Shown: one piece after another, positions 8,033-45,220 of the stretch
Position numbering within the stretch: the first letter of the stretch is position 1
How the letters are laid out: each line of letters opens with the position of its first letter
DNA from: a virus
Taxonomy: Duplodnaviria; Caudoviricetes
DNA: 64,000 nucleotides
Direction: 5' to 3' (one strand)
IMG/VR virus record: IMGVR_UViG_3300047160_000603
Span: 5,126 to 69,125 of that record
Position numbers and translations under genes: made by a program
Notes under the pieces: generated by a model
What the model was told of the DNA's origin: nothing
The model's input: only the letters and a program-made list of their open reading frames with translations
Databases searched by the model: none

Positions 8033-8893
8033 TCACCCATGATGTCTTCGAGAGACTCCGATCAGCCGTTCACCAGCATTGGTGATGTGGTAGATGCCCT
8101 TATCGTCCACGCGGATCAACCCGTCACCGATCATGGTACCCGTCGGGCAGTTGCCTTTCGTATGTGCTCCCAGCAGTTTCGACCAACCCTTTTCAACGCC
8201 GGTCTTGGCTACCAACACTGACCGCGCTAGACCGTCCTTGGCGGTGTACAGTAGTGCCAACACTTGCTTACGTAGGTCGCTGCCTTTGGCACGGGGTGTA
8301 GGTGCCGTTTTAAAGGTCCCCGCTGTGTCAATACTGGTCGTTGTGGTGGTGGCTGGCTTGACAGGCTGTGGTGTGGGTGTGACCACTGGTGTCGGTTTAG
8401 GGGTTTCGTATTTGGTGGTGGGTGCACCACGCTTCTTGAACGCAGCCCATGACTCACCCGGTGCAGCACACTCAAGGTATTTGACGCCGTTGGCCTTTTC
8501 CCATGTAGAGACTTCAGCGTAGATGGCTTTCTCTTCAGGTGACATGCGGTATTCCGGCTTATCGCTACCAATATAGTACACGATACCATTGAACGCTGGG
8601 TCGTTGGGATCAGTGGGACCGGTCAGGCTAGTACGGTGGCAGCGTGCCAAATCCAATTCAGGCTGCTTGGCTTTCGACTTGGGTGTAGGCTTCTGGCGAC
8701 CCACACCCGTTACCGTGACGGGTTTGGCAAGCGTCGGCTTCGCAGCCTTCTTGCCGGGTTTCACGGCTGGCTTCGGTGCATCCACTAACAGACCAACCGT
8801 GCTGTTCCCCGTCGGCTGTGTTTCCACGACTGTTGGTGCGGGTTGGGCTGCGGCTGGCGTTGCGGTCTTGGCGGTTTTCTTGGCGGTGACCAT
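8033..8893 (-). CDS. Ala/Lys/Pro-rich protein with C-terminal winged-helix-like domain (paralog of 21825-22196)
   Basis: AKK-rich N-terminus; C-terminal AKDGL.R..L..KTG..KGW.K.LGA.T.G shared with the paralog. Confidence 0.65.
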   Translation of the reverse strand: MVTAKKTAKTATPAAAQPAPTVVETQPTGNSTVGLLVDAPKPAVKPGKKAAKPTLAKPVTVTGVGRQKPTPKSKAKQPELDLARCHRTSLTGPTDPNDPAFNGIVYYIGSDKPEYRMSPEEKAIYAEVSTWEKANGVKYLECAAPGESWAAFKKRGAPTTKYETPKPTPVVTPTPQPVKPATTTTTSIDTAGTFKTAPTPRAKGSDLRKQVLALLYTAKDGLARSVLVAKTGVEKGWSKLLGAHTKGNCPTGTMIGDGLIRVDDKGIYHITNAGERLIGVSRRHHG

Positions 8894-9033
8894 TAGCTTT
8901 GCTCCTGAGTACAAAATCCAGGTACTCGACTGGAATTGTGAGAAGGACGTGCATTGCACACCCCACAGAGACGTCTGGTCTCGTCAGCACACGCATCACA
9001 CGTGTGGACCGTGCACAGTCGCACGGTTTCGAC

Positions 9034-9765
9034 CTAGTCGTTAAGGACCAACACGTTGCGACCATCCCACACACCAGACCAGCCAACCACTTCACCCTGT
9101 TCGACACGTGGAATCAGTCGGCTGGTGTCGATGTCCGGGCGTTCGCTGGCTTCCACCACCAGCACTTCACCCGGTTGGGTGGCCTTACCCACCGTCATCT
9201 CGTGCGGGTTGCGATCCATCTTTACCTTAACCTTCTTAGTCTTGGTGCGGACCGGCTCGACCTTCACAGATTCCGATTCAGGCTGCGGCGCGGGTACAGC
9301 CTTGGCACGCTTGGCAGGGGCACAGCCCATTTGCCTTGCACACTCTGGACCGATGCCGCTCTCAATGCTTTCTGGCACGGTCAGGTCGCGTCCGCAGCGA
9401 CCGCACTGACCGACGTGATGGACTTTGAACCCTGCGTCTTCGATGGGCTTGGTGTCGCCGGTAAACACCCTGCGGACTACCTTACTAAACATGCTGACCG
9501 GGATGCTGTCTGCGGTGAACTTCGACTTGCCAGTCAGCTTGACGCTGCCATCTTCCTGCATCATGCCAACATAAGTGTAGTCGCTGGTGTTGTCCGGACC
9601 GGTCAGCATCATGACAAACCACGCGTCTCGGTACTGCTGGTCGCCCTTCTTGAACCGCACCTTGTAGGTGTAGTGCGGTTGGGTCTTGTGCTGCTCCGCG
9701 AACGCTGCGGGCACTTCGACGGTGAACACGGCACGACCGGCGGTAACGAATTGCTTGCTAATCAT
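9034..9765 (-). CDS. DUF6011-like zinc-finger protein
   Basis: CGRCGRDLTVPESIESGIGPECA motif. Confidence 0.75.
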   Translation of the reverse strand: MISKQFVTAGRAVFTVEVPAAFAEQHKTQPHYTYKVRFKKGDQQYRDAWFVMMLTGPDNTSDYTYVGMMQEDGSVKLTGKSKFTADSIPVSMFSKVVRRVFTGDTKPIEDAGFKVHHVGQCGRCGRDLTVPESIESGIGPECARQMGCAPAKRAKAVPAPQPESESVKVEPVRTKTKKVKVKMDRNPHEMTVGKATQPGEVLVVEASERPDIDTSRLIPRVEQGEVVGWSGVWDGRNVLVLND

Positions 9766-12060: not shown

Positions 12061-12246
12061 ATGCTCGTCGTGTCGAGGAAGATTGGCCAGCGTATCTTCA
12101 TTGGTGATAATATCGTGGTTACACTTGTGGACGTAGATCGTGGTAAGGTCCGCATTGGTGTTGAAGCACCAAATGACGTCCGTATCCTACGTGAAGAACT
12201 GCTCGATCGCCCCAGTAACGAAGACCAACCCCCACAGCAACGCTAA
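12061..12246 (+). CDS. csrA: Carbon storage regulator CsrA/RsmA
   Basis: MLVVSRKIGQRIFIGDNIVVTLVDV.RGKVRIGVEAP.DVRILREEL. Confidence 0.93.
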   Translation: MLVVSRKIGQRIFIGDNIVVTLVDVDRGKVRIGVEAPNDVRILREELLDRPSNEDQPPQQR

Positions 12247-13504: not shown

Positions 13505-14428
13505 ATGCCACCACCAGTCCGTAAACAGAACGCGGCTGACACTGGTCCAACACCACGCAGTAGCGTTATTGACCGCATCAGGCCGATTGGCTTCGACGAG
13601 GATGATGGCCTTAAAGTGCTAGTCTTCGGCGAGAGTGGTAGTGGTAAGACTACATTCTGGTCCACTTTCCCGAAGCCGATCCTGAGCGTTGTTGTGTCCG
13701 GTGGCTCGAAACCGGGCGAGGCGCGTAGCATTGACACACCAGAGAACCGCAAGGTAATCAGCGCCATCCCGTTAGAACACACCGACGAGATTATGGACCT
13801 GATCCTATATGCAGCCCAGTCCAAGCGGTTCAAGACCATCGTGCTTGACCACGCCACCGGGTTCCAGGACAAGTCCCTTGCTCAGATTACGGGTAGACCA
13901 GTGCCAGAACAGAAGACGTGGGGAACAGCCAGTCAGCAGCAATACGGGCAGTGTACGTCGCAATGCAAGGAGCTCTGGCGGGACATGCTGAGTCTGCCGA
14001 TTAATGTGGTATTTGTGGCGCAGCAACGCGTCTTTAAGGGTGGTGATGGTGAGACTGAGACTGACGCCATCGCACCCACTGTCGGCGCGAACCTGATGCC
14101 TCAACTGGGTGGCTGGCTCAACTGTGCTGTGGACTACATCGTCAACACGTACAAGCGGAACAAGACCGTCAAGCGTATGATCGGCATCGGTAAGCAGCAG
14201 ATTGAACAGACTACCACACTCAAGGAGATTGAGTACTGTCTGCGTACCGGTCCAGACGCCACGATCACCACCAAGTTCCGCGTCCCGAAGGGTCACTTCC
14301 TACCAGATACGGTTGTGGATCCTACGTACGAGAAGCTATGTCAGATCATTAGTGGTACATATCCACGTCCCGCACCACTCAAGCCAGTCCCAACCCCGAA
14401 CAAGCCGGTTAGTACAACCGGTAAGTAA
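13505..14428 (+). CDS. AAA-family ATPase (Sak4/AAA_24-like)
   Basis: FGESGSGKTT, TIVLDHAT, VVFVAQQ, AVDYI. Confidence 0.8.
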   Translation: MPPPVRKQNAADTGPTPRSSVIDRIRPIGFDEDDGLKVLVFGESGSGKTTFWSTFPKPILSVVVSGGSKPGEARSIDTPENRKVISAIPLEHTDEIMDLILYAAQSKRFKTIVLDHATGFQDKSLAQITGRPVPEQKTWGTASQQQYGQCTSQCKELWRDMLSLPINVVFVAQQRVFKGGDGETETDAIAPTVGANLMPQLGGWLNCAVDYIVNTYKRNKTVKRMIGIGKQQIEQTTTLKEIEYCLRTGPDATITTKFRVPKGHFLPDTVVDPTYEKLCQIISGTYPRPAPLKPVPTPNKPVSTTGK

Positions 14429-14461
14429 ATTCACCCACTACCATCCCTACGGAGTAAAGTA

Positions 14462-14890
14462 ATGAACGGTCACAATGATGAGATGATTCAACGCGTCCCT
14501 ACTTATGGTAAGGGGGACAGAGGCAAGATCAACTTCCTACCGATGATGGCGTGTGTGGCATTGCGAGTCATCAAGGTCAATACGACCGTTGGTGGCCTTG
14601 CCATCCCCGAAAACTCACAGGAGCCATACCAGACTCCGCTCGCCGAGGTGCTGGCAGTGGGACCACAGGTGATGTTCACCAGAGTTGGCGACATGGTCAG
14701 ACTCAGTGCCGGTACTCTCGCGAGCAAACTGTTTGTCAAAGACATGGACTTTGTGGTGGTGCGCGAAGACCAGATCTTCGGTATTGACCACGGTATGGAG
14801 CAGAGCGAGTACTCCACGCAGCGGACGCGGGAGAAGATGGCCAACACTACGCAGCACAAGTCACATGGTAAGCTAATCACTGAAGGCTGA
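14462..14890 (+). CDS. groES: GroES-like co-chaperonin
   Basis: TVGGLAIP...AEVLAVGP...VGDMV...VVREDQIFG. Confidence 0.75.
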   Translation: MNGHNDEMIQRVPTYGKGDRGKINFLPMMACVALRVIKVNTTVGGLAIPENSQEPYQTPLAEVLAVGPQVMFTRVGDMVRLSAGTLASKLFVKDMDFVVVREDQIFGIDHGMEQSEYSTQRTREKMANTTQHKSHGKLITEG

Positions 14891-14950
14891 ATACGCATCC
14901 ACAACCTCTAACCTGTTCGATTCCTACAACCATTCTTTGGAGTTACGACT

Positions 14951-15991
14951 ATGCCGGTGCAAAAGGGAAAGCCCAACAACCTCCTCGCCAAGTACGGTAC
15001 ACGCCTCAATACCGCGCACAATAAGGCGAAGGACGAGGATACAGACTTTGGCAACCTCGGTGATCTGCCAGCCGGGATCAGTGGTGGCGTGGCAGTACTA
15101 GAAAGCATCGAGATCACCAAGATCAAGGAAGGTAAGAAGAACGCTGGTGAACCACTCTTCATCGCACGTGCCATCGTGATCAGCCCGGAACAGTACGAAG
15201 GCCAGCAGTGTAAGGGGATGGCCACGACGATCATGACCGTACTGTGTGACACGCCGGAGCGTAGCGGGGAACGCAAGACGTTCGAACAGCACTACGCTTG
15301 GATGCTCAACGAATTGCGGAAGTTGGGCATTGACACCCGCACCACCAAGCCGGAAGACCTAGACGGCATCATGGATGCGTTGCGGATCAGCAAGCCCCAG
15401 ATCCGCTTCCGGACATGGAAGGGTGAGAAGCAGACGACTGGGCAGTACGCAGGTAAGGAGCCTCGCGTCAATCATGAGTGGGGCGGGTTAGTTACAGATA
15501 GCGATTCATCGCTGAATGGTATCGGTGCCGTGGATGTGGACCCGACTGACATCGGCGATGCCAACAGTGGTGCGGCTGAAGCTGGTGATGATGGAGTCGC
15601 TGACGCTGACGCAGCCGTGGACCTGGATGGGCTGGCTACTGCTGCAGATGGTGGGGACGAGGACGCTCAGAACCAACTGGTCGAACTCGCAGATAGCGTT
15701 GGTATTACCGAAGATCAGATCGCGGCAGCCGCAGACTATGTGGCACTCGTCGCACAGATCCAGCAGGTACAGTACGGCGAGACCACCGACGAAGGTGGCT
15801 GGAAGGTTGGTGATACTTGCCAGTACGCACCGAAGGATCCCAAGGACCGCACTGGTAAGAAGCGTCTGGCGAAGGTGGCGTGTGAACTGCTGGTGATCAA
15901 CGCAGACGGCACGCTGGTCGAGCTGAAGAACCTCACCGATGTCAAGAAGAAGTACAAGGACGTGAGTATCAACGAGATCGAGCCGTCCTAA
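14951..15991 (+). CDS. Probable ssDNA-binding/replication accessory protein
   Basis: Position after the recombination genes, long acidic region. Confidence 0.45.
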   Translation: MPVQKGKPNNLLAKYGTRLNTAHNKAKDEDTDFGNLGDLPAGISGGVAVLESIEITKIKEGKKNAGEPLFIARAIVISPEQYEGQQCKGMATTIMTVLCDTPERSGERKTFEQHYAWMLNELRKLGIDTRTTKPEDLDGIMDALRISKPQIRFRTWKGEKQTTGQYAGKEPRVNHEWGGLVTDSDSSLNGIGAVDVDPTDIGDANSGAAEAGDDGVADADAAVDLDGLATAADGGDEDAQNQLVELADSVGITEDQIAAAADYVALVAQIQQVQYGETTDEGGWKVGDTCQYAPKDPKDRTGKKRLAKVACELLVINADGTLVELKNLTDVKKKYKDVSINEIEPS

Positions 15992-16064
15992 GTAGTCCAA
16001 TACCCGGTGTCCACCACGTTCCGCTTTACGTGTGTGGCTTAAATCACGGATGAGCCGGGTTGAT

Positions 16065-16151
16065 GGGTCTCTAGCTCAACAGGTAGAGCACCTTGTTATG
16101 GGGGCTACTTCATACACAAGTCATATCCAGGTTCGAGTCCTGGGAGACCCA
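16065..16151 (+). ncRNA. tRNA-like RNA with expanded anticodon arm
   Basis: GGGTCTC/GAGACCC acceptor, GCTC/GAGC D stem, CCAGG-TTCGAGT-CCTGG T arm; 21 nt instead of 7 in the anticodon loop; ends ACTA, not ACCA. Confidence 0.75.
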
Positions 16152-16153
16152 CT

Positions 16154-16327
16154 ATGGTTCAAGTCAAGCCAGTCTGTAAGGTCTGCCGCAAGGTGCGGTG
16201 TATCTGCAGACCCACACCAGTTAAGCAGCCTGTACGCATCTGCCGCGCCTGCAACGGCACAGGAAAGAGCACACGCGGTTTTGACTGCTTCCCTTGCGTC
16301 ATGGCGGGTCGTGTGAAACCCTTCTAG
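16154..16327 (+). CDS. 57-aa Cys-rich protein with a DnaJ-type zinc-finger-like motif (not in the ORF track)
   Basis: Manual translation MVQVKPVCKVCRKVRCIC...CRACNGTG...CFPC. Confidence 0.5.
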   Translation: MVQVKPVCKVCRKVRCICRPTPVKQPVRICRACNGTGKSTRGFDCFPCVMAGRVKPF

Positions 16328-16337
16328 GAATTTATAC

Positions 16338-18596
16338 ATGGTAGCCATTAAGACTCAGCCACGACGCACTAATGCAACACAAACGGCAACAGCTACCCAC
16401 CACAAGCGGGTCTTCTCTTTTGATACCGAGACTACCGGGCTGGACTTACGGCACGGTGCCAAACCATACTTTATCATATCGGCTGATGCCGCGGACTCAC
16501 TCTACCCACTCACATGGCAGTGGCGTGTAGACCCATTGACGCGGCAGCCCATCATCCCAAACGGTGATATCGAAGAGATCCATGAGCATCTACGCAGCCT
16601 CGACACCATCGTCCTGCAGAATGCCAAGTTCGACGTTACGGCAATGGCTACGCTCGACGAGGCGTTCGGGCGTCAGTGGCAGTGGGGTAAGACTGAGGAT
16701 ACGCTGCTACTCGCACATCTACTTGCCAGTAATAAGCCGAAGTCACTAGACGTACTCGCGGTGATGTATCTCGGCATCAGCATCAAGTCACTAGAAGACA
16801 AGATGGAAGAGGCAGTCCAGGCGGCTCGACGGTACTGCCGGAGTAGACTTAAGGATTGGCGGATTGCCAAGAAGGGTCTACCAGATATGCCCAGCATGAA
16901 GGAGGAGTGCTGGAAAGCTGACACGTGGTTGCCACGCGCTATCATCTACGAACTGGGCGGTACCGACAAGCTGAGTGAGCACTATGGTGAGGACATGAGT
17001 TGGTGGGAAACGGTCACTGAGGAGTATGCGTGTGCGGATGGTACCATAACCGTCGGACTACTGCCACGCATGATGGATCGTGTGCGGGAACGTAAGCTAG
17101 ACAAGATCTACCAATTACGCCGGAAGTTACTACCCGTCGCCTACGCGATGGAAAGTCGTGGTGTCACGCTTAGCAGTGATAGGCTTAATAAGCTAGAAAC
17201 GGACTACATGGAGGCGAGCGATGCCGCAACACAGATCTGCACTAACATCGCAGCCGGATACGGGCACGAGCTCACCATGCCGAAGGGTGCTAGCGTTAAC
17301 AAGAATCTGCAGGACTTCGTCTTCAACAAGATGAAGCTAACCAAGATCTACAATCCAAAAGCCGGTAAGGGTAAGGATAAGGACTACGAGCCAAACCCTA
17401 CGCTAGATAGCAAGAACGCCATCCCGTATTATCTAGACACGCTCAAGCCCAACAGTAAAGAGCTACTGTTCATCAAGACGCTGGCAGGCAAGCGCAGCCG
17501 CGACACTGCCTGTACCTTCATGCAGATGTATACTCGCTACTGGCAGCCTGTACCAAGCAAGTCTGGATGGTACCGGCTACATCCCAATTTCAAGCCCACA
17601 GCAACCGATACGCTACGCTGGGGCTGTGATAACCCAGCCGTCCAGAACATTAGCAAGAAGGAAAACTTTAACCTCCGGTACTGCTTTGGTCCCGCACCTG
17701 ACCGGGAATGGTGGTCACTCGATGCGAAGAACATCGAGCTCCGGCTACCCTTCTATGAGTCGGGTGAATTGGCACTCATTGACCTATTCGAGCATCCAGA
17801 CGACCCACCATTCTTCGGCAGTAATCACCTACTCAACTTCAGTGTTATCTACCCAGACCTGTGGGCTACCGCAGTCAAGGAAGTAGGTCTGGATAAGGCT
17901 GGTCCATACTGCAAGAAGAAGTACGCAGCCACATGGTATCAGTGGTGTAAGAACGGTAACTTCGCCATCCAGTACGGCGCGGTAGACAAGAGCGATGGTA
18001 CTGGCACAGCGGACCGAGCATTCCATAAGTCGGGTGCACATGCACTGCTTAAGGAACGGTTCAAGAACCTCGAAATCCTCAATAAAGCACAGATAGAGTT
18101 TGCCAACAGACACGGCTACGTGGAGACCATCCCAGACCGTACCGTGGACCCAGAACGTGGCTACCCACTACTATGTACTCGCACGGAGTACGGCAAGATC
18201 CTAGAGACCGTGCCACTTAGCTACCGTGTGCAAGGGTCCGCGATGTGGTGGACAGGCAAAGCACAGATACGCTGCCAAGCCAAGCTAGATGAGTGGCAGG
18301 GTATAGGAGGCTTCGACGGGTTTATCTGTATGCAGGTCCACGACGAGATGGTGTTCGACTTCCCACGTAGTATCATAGACCCACGCATCCACATGGAGTA
18401 CATCAAGAAAGGTAAGCCCATTCCACTGTTCCAACGTTACAAGAGCAACCTGTGGCGGATACAGATCCTTGCTAGACTAATGGCTCAGGGTGGTACAGAC
18501 TTCATCCTACCGAACTGTCCGCGCGGTATACCTACACCTGTCGGCGTCGAATATCACACTGAGTCCTGGAGTGAAGGAGTGACCCTTGCCATCTGA
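16338..18596 (+). CDS. polA: Family A DNA polymerase with 3'-5' exonuclease
   Basis: FDTETTGL, QNAKFD, SLDAKNIELRL, KNGNFAIQYG, QVHDEM. Confidence 0.93.
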   Translation: MVAIKTQPRRTNATQTATATHHKRVFSFDTETTGLDLRHGAKPYFIISADAADSLYPLTWQWRVDPLTRQPIIPNGDIEEIHEHLRSLDTIVLQNAKFDVTAMATLDEAFGRQWQWGKTEDTLLLAHLLASNKPKSLDVLAVMYLGISIKSLEDKMEEAVQAARRYCRSRLKDWRIAKKGLPDMPSMKEECWKADTWLPRAIIYELGGTDKLSEHYGEDMSWWETVTEEYACADGTITVGLLPRMMDRVRERKLDKIYQLRRKLLPVAYAMESRGVTLSSDRLNKLETDYMEASDAATQICTNIAAGYGHELTMPKGASVNKNLQDFVFNKMKLTKIYNPKAGKGKDKDYEPNPTLDSKNAIPYYLDTLKPNSKELLFIKTLAGKRSRDTACTFMQMYTRYWQPVPSKSGWYRLHPNFKPTATDTLRWGCDNPAVQNISKKENFNLRYCFGPAPDREWWSLDAKNIELRLPFYESGELALIDLFEHPDDPPFFGSNHLLNFSVIYPDLWATAVKEVGLDKAGPYCKKKYAATWYQWCKNGNFAIQYGAVDKSDGTGTADRAFHKSGAHALLKERFKNLEILNKAQIEFANRHGYVETIPDRTVDPERGYPLLCTRTEYGKILETVPLSYRVQGSAMWWTGKAQIRCQAKLDEWQGIGGFDGFICMQVHDEMVFDFPRSIIDPRIHMEYIKKGKPIPLFQRYKSNLWRIQILARLMAQGGTDFILPNCPRGIPTPVGVEYHTESWSEGVTLAI

Positions 18597-44340: not shown

Positions 44341-44369
44341 AACACCTGAGTCGACTTTTGGGGGAGTCG

Positions 44370-44468
44370 GCGCGTCGTGTGTATGGGTTAGCACGGAGTG
44401 AAATATAGGGGGGACTGACGGGACCCTTTATATCTCCTCTGATAGGGTTCGAATCCCTAACGACGCGT
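44370..44468 (+). ncRNA. tRNA-like RNA with long extended anticodon-position helix
   Basis: GCGCGTCGT/ACGACGCGT acceptor, GTGT-ATGGGTTA-GCAC D arm, TAGGG-TTCGAAT-CCCTA T arm, GGAG/CTCC plus ATATAGGGGG/CCCTTTATAT helix. Confidence 0.7.
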
Positions 44469-44510: not shown

Positions 44511-45170
44511 ATGTTCGCGTTTCGCGCAGCGAAGAGCCTCACGAAGAAGTCGGTCAAACCCACTCTGTTCCTTGCCACAGCGTTGTCATTGCTGTGGGTG
44601 GGCATTGATCTGTGTGATGGTGCAAGTGAGCGGTTCCACCACCGTGTGGAGCAAGCCCAAACAGAAGTATCCAAGCCAGTTACAGATATGACCGAGCAGG
44701 TAGCTGACGTCATGGTGAAATTCTGGCACAGCATCGAGAGCAACCCAGGACCGAGCATCCTGGCAGCCATACTGTTCGTCCTGACCATCGTCTACCACAA
44801 GATCAAGGGTCGTTCCACTGTTGCGGCTGTCAAAGCTGCCGTACTGCGTGAACCCCCCATCGAGCAGCCACTACCGAACCCAACGCTTGAACGTATCCAG
44901 CGTGACGTAATCGAGAACCAGATGCTGGAGACCTACGACAAATTGGAGAAGCGTCAGAAGGATCTGCCCTCCGAGATCGAGAATGCGGCAGCCCGCGTGC
45001 GTCAGGCAGATAGCCAGCGTGTTCGTACTGCAGAAACAGCAGACCGGGCAGCTAATGAGTTCGAGAAGGCCAAAGCCTACCACCAACGTCTCCTCAAGGA
45101 GCGCGAGGACGGTAGCAACCTAATGGCAGAGATCGAGCGTGAGCTTAACACTCGAGAAACCGCCACCTGA
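44511..45170 (+). CDS. Membrane protein with C-terminal coiled coil
   Basis: RBS GGAGG; two hydrophobic segments; charged helical tail. Confidence 0.65.
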   Translation: MFAFRAAKSLTKKSVKPTLFLATALSLLWVGIDLCDGASERFHHRVEQAQTEVSKPVTDMTEQVADVMVKFWHSIESNPGPSILAAILFVLTIVYHKIKGRSTVAAVKAAVLREPPIEQPLPNPTLERIQRDVIENQMLETYDKLEKRQKDLPSEIENAAARVRQADSQRVRTAETADRAANEFEKAKAYHQRLLKEREDGSNLMAEIERELNTRETAT

Positions 45171-45178
45171 TAACACCT

Positions 45179-45220
45179 ATCCGCGTCCTGGGGCTGGGGG
45201 TTCAATTCCCCCGCGCGGAT
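45179..45220 (+). ncRNA. tRNA minihelix (acceptor stem plus T arm)
   Basis: ATCCGCGT/GCGCGGAT stem, GGGGG-TTCAATT-CCCCC T arm, 9-nt connector. Confidence 0.55.

What the first reader, a model, noticed from the sequence alone, without database searches (positions are those of the whole stretch)
16065..16151. tRNA-like RNA 1: near-perfect cloverleaf with a hairpin inserted in the anticodon loop
Seen: canonical acceptor, D and T arms, but 21 nt between CCTTG and CAAGT. The excess folds as TATGGGG-GCTA-CTTCATA stacked on CTTGT/ACAAG. A TT-CAT-AC Met/Ile2-type loop sequence lies on its 3' side. No encoded CCA. Established: bacteria lack the bulge-helix-bulge splicing endonuclease, and 12-14 nt is far too short for a group I intron. 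Inference: either a non-decoding tRNA mimic (decoy for anticodon nucleases or tRNA-sensing defences) or a tRNA with a mini-intron removed by an unknown route. A second RNA of the same design at 44370 argues against simple decay.
Basis: partly seen in the sequence, partly recalled or inferred. Interest (0 to 1): 0.72.

Follow-up and report, generated by a model that had tools for sequence, protein, structure and literature searches.

The report
Phage tRNA-Met gene with closed anticodon
A soil phage carries a methionine-tRNA gene whose anticodon loop is closed by a 12-base insert, so it probably cannot read codons. It has kept its whole tRNA shape and most likely marks where host tRNA-trimming enzymes cut the phage's long messenger RNA, though it could be a dead gene.

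Summary
Window 16065-16151 (+) is a near-perfect cloverleaf (Rfam tRNA 48.2 bits) with 21 nt where the 7-nt anticodon loop should be. The extra bases pair with the old loop and make a 12-bp rod capped by GCUA.

Synteny shows what it was. The slot between a conserved 346-aa gene and polA holds a normal tRNA(CAU) in four more distant relatives. RNA1 shares acceptor and D-arm sequence with two of them. Its CAT is therefore a real tRNA-Met relic, and the insert is lineage-specific.

I found no support for a mini-intron. There is no bulge-helix-bulge, the phage has no RtcB or RNA ligase, and the stem left after removal would have six layers.

Simple decay is also doubtful. The closest relative carries a different aberrant loop on an intact, compensated cloverleaf. 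Other relatives hold conserved non-decoding tRNA-likes in the same slot. This phage has two more acceptor/T-arm modules, all sense-strand and intergenic.

Best reading (about 0.5): a tRNA-derived RNase P/RNase Z processing mark inside the replication operon. Its 3' strand holds the ribosome-binding site of the next gene. A dead tRNA gene remains likely (about 0.25).

There are no expression data. This scan has already noted similar phage elements on other DNA.

The parts
16065..16151 (+). RNA1: a tRNA-Met(CAU)-derived tRNA-shaped RNA. Acceptor 16065-71/16144-50, D arm 16074-89, T arm 16127-43, discriminator A16151, no encoded CCA.
   Evidence: Rfam tRNA 48.2 bits; ARAGORN; MFE cloverleaf z -4.2; covariation with slot orthologues.
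16092..16120 (+). Closed anticodon arm. Stem CTTGT (16092-96) with ACAAG (16116-20). Inserted arm TATGGGG (16097-103), loop GCTA (16104-07), old loop CTTCATA (16108-14), bulged C16115. The relic anticodon CAT (16111-13) pairs in cis with ATG (16098-100). Two G-U pairs make the helix specific to the + strand RNA.
16002..16060 (+). Conserved leader just 5' of RNA1. P1 is 16002-08 with 16054-60, P2 hairpin is 16011-37, and the single-stranded motif TTAAATCACGGATGAG is 16039-54 (GGA at 16048-50). P1 closes 4 nt before the predicted RNase P site.
   Evidence: Fold. The alignment with L259, L260 and L262 shows a conserved motif and covarying stems. The motif is unique in the window.
16142..16327 (+). 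Ribosome-binding site GGGAG (16142-46, inside the T-stem/acceptor 3' strand of RNA1) and a 57-aa CxxCxGxG zinc-finger ORF (ATG 16154, 2 nt after the discriminator). polA follows at 16338.
   Evidence: The ORF is conserved in G002, G005, L173 and L175. The 7-nt spacing matches other GGAG sites in the phage.
14951..15991 (+). 346-aa gene of unknown function, the upstream anchor of the conserved slot (Sak4, GroES-like, p346, RNA slot, zinc finger, polA).
44350..44467 (+). RNA2: a 9-bp hairpin (44350-71) abutting a tRNA-like RNA. Acceptor 44372-78/44460-66, D-like arm, long anticodon helix, T arm 44443-59.
45179..45220 (+). tRNA minihelix made of an acceptor stem and a T arm (GGGGG-TTCAATT-CCCCC) only.

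Best explanation
RNA1 descends from the tRNA-Met(CAU) gene that sits between the 346-aa gene and polA in this phage group.

In this lineage a 12-nt insert pairs with the old anticodon loop. Its ATG pairs in cis with the CAT. The anticodon arm becomes a closed 12-bp rod, so the RNA can no longer decode. The parts that tRNA-processing enzymes read are all intact: the 7-bp acceptor stem with G1-C72, U at -1, discriminator A73, the T arm, and the D-loop/T-loop elbow.

The element has no detectable promoter or terminator of its own and lies inside a + strand operon.

Inferred mechanism:
- Host RNase P cuts at 16064/16065. This leaves the upstream message ending in the conserved P1/P2 leader structure.
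- Host RNase Z or an equivalent enzyme cuts after A16151. This leaves the zinc-finger/polA message starting 2 nt before its AUG.
- While the transcript is uncut, the tRNA fold hides that gene's ribosome-binding site.

Shown here: the structure, its ancestry, its context, and conservation of the shape. Inferred: transcription, both cleavages, and any effect on expression.
For: 1. Ancestry. The slot p346 -> polA is syntenic in relatives.
- It holds a canonical tRNA(CAT) in L174, L177, L260 and L262.
- L260/L262 share GGGTCTG and AGCTCAAC..GAGCA with RNA1.

2. Decoding has been lost repeatedly in this slot while the shape is kept.
- The closest relative, L259 (52% p346 identity, with the same leader motif), has a 9-nt loop TTACAGCAA on an intact cloverleaf whose acceptor, anticodon and T stems differ from RNA1 by compensatory changes.
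- L178 has a shortened loop.
- The G002-type family has four distinct sequences with invariant loops and covarying stems.
- Across six slot elements, the acceptor, D and T helices are 98-100% paired and 13 of 21 pairs show double changes. No more than 2 of 500 shuffles reach any of the five measures.

3. Three acceptor/T-arm modules lie in the window, all sense-strand and intergenic, against 0.1 expected from shuffles under the same criteria.

4. A hairpin ends 0-5 nt before position +1 of most slot elements and of RNA2.

5. No sigma-70-like promoter or intrinsic terminator lies next to the elements.

6. The two G-U pairs in the insert helix fit RNA-level pairing on the + strand only.

7. The GGGAG site of the conserved zinc-finger ORF lies inside the fold.

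8. A sub-threshold type II hammerhead fills an intergenic gap, in sense orientation, in the minus-strand operon. This suggests the phage also uses RNA-level cutting elsewhere.
Against: - There are no expression or end-mapping data.
- The insert itself is seen in this one genome only. No relative above 52% p346 identity exists in the searched collections, so selection on the insert cannot be tested and it could be recent.
- Several relatives (G001, G005, L264) have no tRNA-like element in the slot, so the element is dispensable.
- A full D arm and elbow are more than a bare RNase P signal needs.
- The host is unknown, so its 3'-processing route and its tolerance of near-leaderless messages are unknown.
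- RNA2 and the minihelix are not conserved in relatives.
Confidence: 0.5

Rival explanations
1. Dead tRNA gene. A recent templated (quasi-palindrome) insertion inactivated a dispensable phage tRNA-Met. The rest still looks perfect only because too little time has passed, and the RNA has no function beyond being trimmed like any tRNA.
For: - The insert is not found in any relative, and orthologues are normal tRNA(CAT).
- The slot is empty in some relatives.
- An insert complementary to adjacent sequence is what strand-switch mutation produces (inference).
- No close relatives are available to show selection.
Against: - The sister lineage L259 also lacks a canonical loop yet keeps a fully paired cloverleaf with compensatory changes in three stems.
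- The insert arm differs from an exact templated copy at two positions, and both keep pairing as G-U, while no stem elsewhere is broken except C27-U43.
- Two further non-decoding tRNA-like modules with perfect top halves lie in the same compact genome.
- A conserved non-decoding family occupies the same slot in other relatives.
Confidence: 0.25
2. tRNA decoy or sponge. After trimming and CCA addition, the stable non-decoding tRNA shape soaks up a host factor that acts on the acceptor end or elbow of tRNAs. Candidates are tRNA-directed defence toxins or other tRNA-binding enzymes. The closed anticodon keeps it out of translation and away from anticodon nucleases.
For: - The complete L-shape (D arm, elbow, A73) is retained, which is more than a cleavage signal needs.
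- Several tRNA-like RNAs occur in one phage.
- The same closed-rod design occurs in an unrelated viral contig, L236.
Against: - No defence or counter-defence gene was linked to it here.
- A single gene copy with no promoter of its own is an unlikely source of sponge-level amounts.
- The partner tRNA-likes have very different bodies, down to a bare minihelix, so they are unlikely to mimic one target.
- An anticodon-loop nuclease would not recognise a closed helix.
Confidence: 0.12
3. Working tRNA. The 12-14 nt insert is removed by an unknown route, or the RNA decodes as ARAGORN's tRNA-Ile(UAU) with a long variable arm, giving a functional Met/Ile tRNA.
For: - ARAGORN in intron mode yields a loop TTCATAC with U33 and A37.
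- AUA makes up about 10% of the Ile codons counted in 42 predicted genes.
Against: - There is no bulge-helix-bulge, and 12 nt is far too short for a self-splicing intron (established knowledge).
- The phage encodes no RtcB, RNA ligase or CCA-adding enzyme.
- Removal leaves a six-layer anticodon stem.
- Orthologues have no insert.
- The Ile(UAU) reading needs a stem with a C-C mismatch and two G-U pairs, and it ignores the far more stable hairpin.
Confidence: 0.05

Closest known systems
t-elements of plant mitochondria (Forner et al. 2007, PMC1920247) and the tRNA-punctuation model of mitochondrial transcripts
   Same: Both are tRNA-like structures inside polycistronic transcripts that do not decode. 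In plants they are proposed to act as cis-signals for RNase P and/or RNase Z cleavage at mRNA 5' and 3' ends (abstract). In both cases stem-loops sit next to the processed ends.
   Different: RNA1 is in a bacteriophage, and no ends have been mapped here. It keeps a complete cloverleaf, and its tRNA-Met ancestry is traceable through orthologues. Its 3' strand also contains the next gene's ribosome-binding site.
mascRNA and MEN-beta tRNA-like elements at the 3' ends of MALAT1 and NEAT1 (from my own knowledge; Rfam RF01684)
   Same: These are also tRNA-like folds with a degenerate anticodon arm. RNase P and RNase Z cut them out of a long transcript, which defines the end of the upstream RNA.
   Different: They are eukaryotic nuclear RNAs with no sequence relation to RNA1. 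The whole-window Rfam search at E <= 5 returned only the tRNA model for RNA1.
Canonical phage tRNA-Met/Ile2(CAU) genes in the same slot of related phages (L174, L177, L260, L262)
   Same: They occupy the same genomic slot and have the same D arm, a similar acceptor, discriminator A and no encoded CCA. They too are embedded in the operon and preceded by a hairpin.
   Different: Those genes have a 5-bp anticodon stem and a 7-nt CTCATAA loop. RNA1 has 21 nt folded into a closed helix.
T4 stable RNAs C and D, and RNase P-processed phage regulatory RNAs (P1/P7 C4, P4 CI) (from my own knowledge)
   Same: These are phage-encoded non-decoding small RNAs matured by host tRNA-processing enzymes.
   Different: They share no sequence or architecture with RNA1. 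C4 and CI act as antisense regulators, and nothing here suggests an antisense target.
YrlA / Y RNAs with tRNA-like modules (Chen et al. 2014, PMC4201824)
   Same: They are tRNA mimics that carry a long helix.
   Different: The phage has no Ro60 (TROVE) gene. RNA1's helix is only 12 bp and has open acceptor ends, so the topology differs.

Membership tests
Canonical decoding tRNA (Rfam RF00005) | Cloverleaf with a 7-bp acceptor stem, D arm, T arm and conserved tertiary nucleotides | tested here: met
   48.2 bits against a 29-bit gathering score. U8, A14, G18G19, A21, A15-U48, G53-C61 and T54-T55-C56-A58 are all present.
Canonical decoding tRNA (Rfam RF00005) | 5-bp anticodon stem closed by a 7-nt loop with U33, anticodon and R37 | tested here: not met
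   There are 21 nt between the stem strands. They fold into a 7-bp helix plus a GCUA tetraloop.
tRNA with a protein-spliced intron (archaeal/eukaryal type) | Bulge-helix-bulge motif at the exon-intron junctions, usually at position 37/38 | tested here: not met
   The helix is continuous with one bulged C. The ARAGORN 'intron' sits at 32/33.
tRNA with a protein-spliced intron (archaeal/eukaryal type) | A ligase to rejoin the halves (RtcB or an RNA ligase) available from the phage | tested here: not met
   PF01139 and PF09414 are absent from the complete 69-kb genome. Host enzymes are unknown.
tRNA with a group I intron (bacterial type) | Intron of roughly 200 nt or more with the P1-P9 catalytic core | tested here: not met
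   The insert is 12-14 nt.
t-element / tRNA-like processing signal | A non-decoding tRNA-like fold that keeps an acceptor stem and T arm, placed inside a polycistronic transcript between genes | tested here: met
t-element / tRNA-like processing signal | mRNA ends that coincide with the RNase P and RNase Z sites of the element | not testable with these tools
   No end-mapping or expression data could be obtained with these tools.
Y RNA / YrlA-type tRNA mimic | Ro60 (TROVE) partner gene and a Ro-binding helix | tested here: not met
   PF05731 is absent from the genome.

The most novel reading that the evidence does not exclude
This phage group uses tRNA genes that have lost decoding as mitochondria-style punctuation. 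RNase P and RNase Z cut the operon at tRNA-shaped marks. The upstream message is left ending in a protective hairpin, and the downstream message starts 2 nt before its AUG (near-leaderless). Closing the anticodon with a cis codon-anticodon helix is an adaptive way to keep the released RNA out of translation. A conserved CsrA-type site in the leader, together with a phage CsrA gene, may add a regulatory layer at the same junction.
Probability: 0.3. Interest if true: 0.72.

Novelty: new variant of a known kind. Interest (0 to 1): 0.45.

Why it matters
Phage tRNA genes are usually explained by codon supply or by escape from tRNA-cutting defences. Here the same genomic slot shows a series across relatives: normal tRNA-Met, tRNA with an odd loop, tRNA with a closed anticodon, and a conserved tRNA-like RNA with no anticodon arm. 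The acceptor/T-arm half is kept throughout.

This suggests that what is selected is recognition by tRNA-processing enzymes, not decoding. That would make tRNA-shaped RNAs operon punctuation marks in phages, as t-elements are proposed to be in plant mitochondria.

It also has a practical side. tRNA finders label such genes as tRNA-Ile or tRNA-Met, so phage tRNA inventories and codon-usage arguments may include non-decoders.

The 390-bp region 15950-16340 makes the idea directly testable with RNase P assays and end mapping.

Tried and rejected
- Close relatives: megablast of 14000-18000 against 50,697 phage records gave no match. Exact-pattern scans of viral contigs for RNA1 and for leader plus D arm gave no match. 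A scan of bacterial genomes for the 3' half gave no exact match.
- RNA evidence: no RNA holder was listed among the public runs. Laying four soil DNA runs on 15700-16500 gave only low-depth contigs identical to the window, with no variants and no form lacking the insert.
- Tracing the tRNA identity from the D arm alone failed. The same D arm occurs in bacterial tRNA Thr, Lys, Asn and Met.
- Attachment-site remnant: rejected, because the full cloverleaf is present and no integrase was seen.
- Ro60/Y RNA chimera: rejected, no TROVE gene.
- Phage-encoded splicing or repair: rejected, no RtcB, RNA ligase or CCA-adding enzyme.
- A dispersed promoter as the explanation for the leader motif: rejected, the motif is unique in the window.
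- RNA2 and the minihelix are not conserved. None were found in the head operons of G001-G005, nor beside homologues of the bracketed 219-aa gene in other phages.
- 'Relatives' cannot be drawn for a virus record.
- Literature searches found no paper describing tRNA-like punctuation in phages. This covers only the held library.

Full report
**What the window is.** The window is bases 5126-69125 of a 69,125-bp viral record with direct terminal repeats, rated complete. The only runs that hold it are soil metagenomes. G+C is about 54%. Genes before about 9.8 kb lie mostly on the minus strand and nearly all later genes on the plus strand.

RNA1 lies in a replication module with this order: exonuclease, Sak4-like annealing protein, GroES-like protein, a 346-aa protein of unknown family ('p346'), RNA1, a 57-aa zinc-finger ORF, then DNA polymerase A.

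**Check of the observation.** All stated features are present.
- Rfam's tRNA model gives 48.2 bits (gathering score 29) and treats 19 nt as an insertion in the anticodon loop.
- The minimum-free-energy fold takes 75% of the ensemble. It is a cloverleaf whose anticodon arm is a 12-bp rod: CUUGU/ACAAG, then UAUGGGG/CUUCAUA, with one bulged C and a GCUA tetraloop. The z-score is -4.2, and 0 of 200 shuffles fold as well.
- ARAGORN's default call, tRNA-Ile(UAU) with a long variable arm, needs a stem with a C-C mismatch and two G-U pairs. In intron mode ARAGORN calls tRNA-Met(CAU) with a 12-nt 'intron' at 32/33.
- All standard tertiary nucleotides are kept: U8, A14, G18G19, A21, A15-U48, G53-C61 and the T-loop.
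- The insert contains AUG (16098-100), which pairs in cis with the CAU (16111-13).
- Two pairs in that helix are G-U, so the helix exists only in the + strand RNA.

**Ancestry.** The order Sak4, p346, slot, (zinc finger), polA is conserved in relatives with 27-58% polA identity. The slot contents vary.

| Slot content | Where |
|---|---|
| Canonical tRNA(CAT) | L174; L177 (Ile2-like anticodon stem); L260; L262 |
| Canonical tRNA-Arg(CCT) | G004 |
| Non-decoding tRNA-likes | RNA1; L259; L178; the G002 type |
| int-alpA RNA followed by an HNH gene | G003 |
| Terminator-like hairpin, or other structure | G005, G001 |

The tRNA-Met of L260/L262 shares GGGTCTG and AGCTCAAC..GAGCA with RNA1. Its T stem is identical to that of L259. 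RNA1 is therefore an orthologue of a slot tRNA-Met, and its CAT is a true relic. The insert is absent from every relative found.

**Is it just decay?** The closest relative is L259 (52% p346 identity, and nothing closer among 5.8 billion protein clusters). It shares the leader motif and carries an orthologous tRNA shape. Its anticodon region is also abnormal, but in a different way: a 9-nt loop TTACAGCAA, or a 6-bp stem with a loop lacking U33 and R37. Its acceptor, anticodon and T stems differ from RNA1 at many positions yet all pair.

Across six slot elements the acceptor, D and T helices are 98-100% paired, and 13 of 21 pairs show changes on both sides. No more than 2 of 500 shuffles reach any of the five measures, and the slid registers collapse.

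The G002-type element has four distinct sequences. They share invariant GTGTGGTA and GTGATAGGGCA segments, with covarying acceptor and hairpin stems. This shows that a non-decoding tRNA-like in this slot can be under purifying selection.

In the window itself, a scan for a T arm followed directly by a 7-bp acceptor finds three modules: RNA1, RNA2 at 44372-44466, and a minihelix at 45180-45219. All are sense-strand and intergenic. Twenty shuffles under the same criteria gave 0.1 on average. Under looser T-loop criteria the window gives four hits against 0.9 in shuffles, the extra hit being on the minus strand.

These facts make pure neutral decay less likely, but they cannot date the insert. 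I leave that rival at 0.25.

**Mini-intron.** I found no support for it.
- There is no bulge-helix-bulge.
- The insert is far too short for self-splicing.
- Removing 12 nt leaves a six-layer stem.
- The complete genome has no RtcB, RNA ligase or CCA-adding enzyme.
- Orthologues have no insert.

**Likely mechanism.** No sigma-70-type promoter or intrinsic terminator flanks any of the three elements. They should therefore be transcribed as part of long messages and be exposed to host RNase P and 3' trimming.

A hairpin ends 0-5 nt before position +1 in most slot elements, and directly before RNA2 (44350-71). This is the arrangement expected if RNase P cleavage leaves the upstream message with a protective 3' structure.

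Downstream, the AUG of the conserved zinc-finger ORF lies 2 nt after the discriminator. Its GGGAG site (7-nt spacing, as at other genes of this phage) lies inside the T-stem/acceptor strand. Cleavage would therefore give a near-leaderless message, and the uncut fold would mask the site.

These steps are inferred, not shown. I rate this reading at 0.5. The decoy reading (0.12) rests only on retention of the full L-shape. A working tRNA is at 0.05.

**Comparison with known systems.** The closest described parallel is the plant-mitochondrial t-element (PMC1920247). mascRNA-type elements are similar in principle (from my own knowledge). RNA1 meets the structural and positional criteria. The defining criterion, mapped ends, cannot be tested here.

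I found no paper on such elements in phages in the held library. Earlier AI follow-ups in this scan reached the same reading for other phages. That is not independent evidence, but it means the kind is recurrent within this scan.

**Verdict.** The structure is real and the ancestry is clear. The conserved-design and intron readings are not supported. The function is probable but unproven. It is a new variant of a known kind, with an interest score of 0.45.

Noticed in passing
window 8969-9034 (-): Candidate type II hammerhead ribozyme. It scores 33.6 bits (gathering score 37, E 0.0054) and has a complete core (CUGAcGA, GAAA, GUC cleavage triplet) and two closed stems. It exactly fills the gap between minus-strand genes 9034-9765 and 8033-8959 and is in sense orientation to them. 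It was not found in relatives G001-G005.
   Followed up: partly
window 12061-12246 (+) and 16002-16060 (+): The phage encodes a CsrA homologue (PF02599, 74 bits). The conserved leader before RNA1 presents the single-stranded motif TTAAATCACGGATGAG between two covarying stems. The motif resembles the high-affinity CsrA site (ACARGGAUG, from memory) and is conserved in L259, L260 and L262. Relatives L260, L264 and L265 place a CsrA gene right before p346.
   Followed up: partly
window 44511-45170 (+): The 219-aa gene bracketed by RNA2 and the minihelix has 44-54% identical homologues. The three contigs I fetched (50-54%) come from phages with a GpA-type terminase and have no tRNA-like flanks. 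The gene is absent from polA relatives G001-G005, so it looks like a mosaic insert sitting between two tRNA-like modules.
   Followed up: partly
L253 3129-3197, L255, L256, L257 (G002-type): A small family of about 70-nt tRNA-like RNAs without D or anticodon arms. Each has an acceptor stem, invariant GTGTGGTA, a covarying 5-6-bp hairpin, invariant GTGATAGGGCA and a T arm. Two of the four distinct sequences lie upstream of polA in relatives, one of them confirmed between p346 and polA.
   Followed up: partly
L236 3682-3763: An unrelated 84-kb viral contig carries a tRNA body whose anticodon arm is a closed 7-bp helix with a GGGA tetraloop. This is the same 'closed rod' design as RNA1.
   Followed up: no
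L007 3320-3387 (G003) and L028 5066-5130: In G003 an int-alpA RNA motif (42 bits) occupies the p346-polA slot, followed by an HNH endonuclease-like ORF. A weaker int-alpA match (28 bits) lies just after polA in L028.
   Followed up: no
G004 65038-65110 (-): Relative G004 carries a tRNA with a CTA anticodon (an amber-reading, suppressor-type tRNA) in addition to tRNA-Arg(CCT).
   Followed up: no
L262 2512-2660: In the same slot of another relative, a T arm (CCTGG-TTCGAAT-CCAGG) sits inside a 14-bp outer helix with a middle of about 100 nt. It lies upstream of tRNA-Leu(TAG), tRNA-Leu(TAA), a partial duplicate of the tRNA-Met 5' end, and tRNA-Met itself.
   Followed up: no
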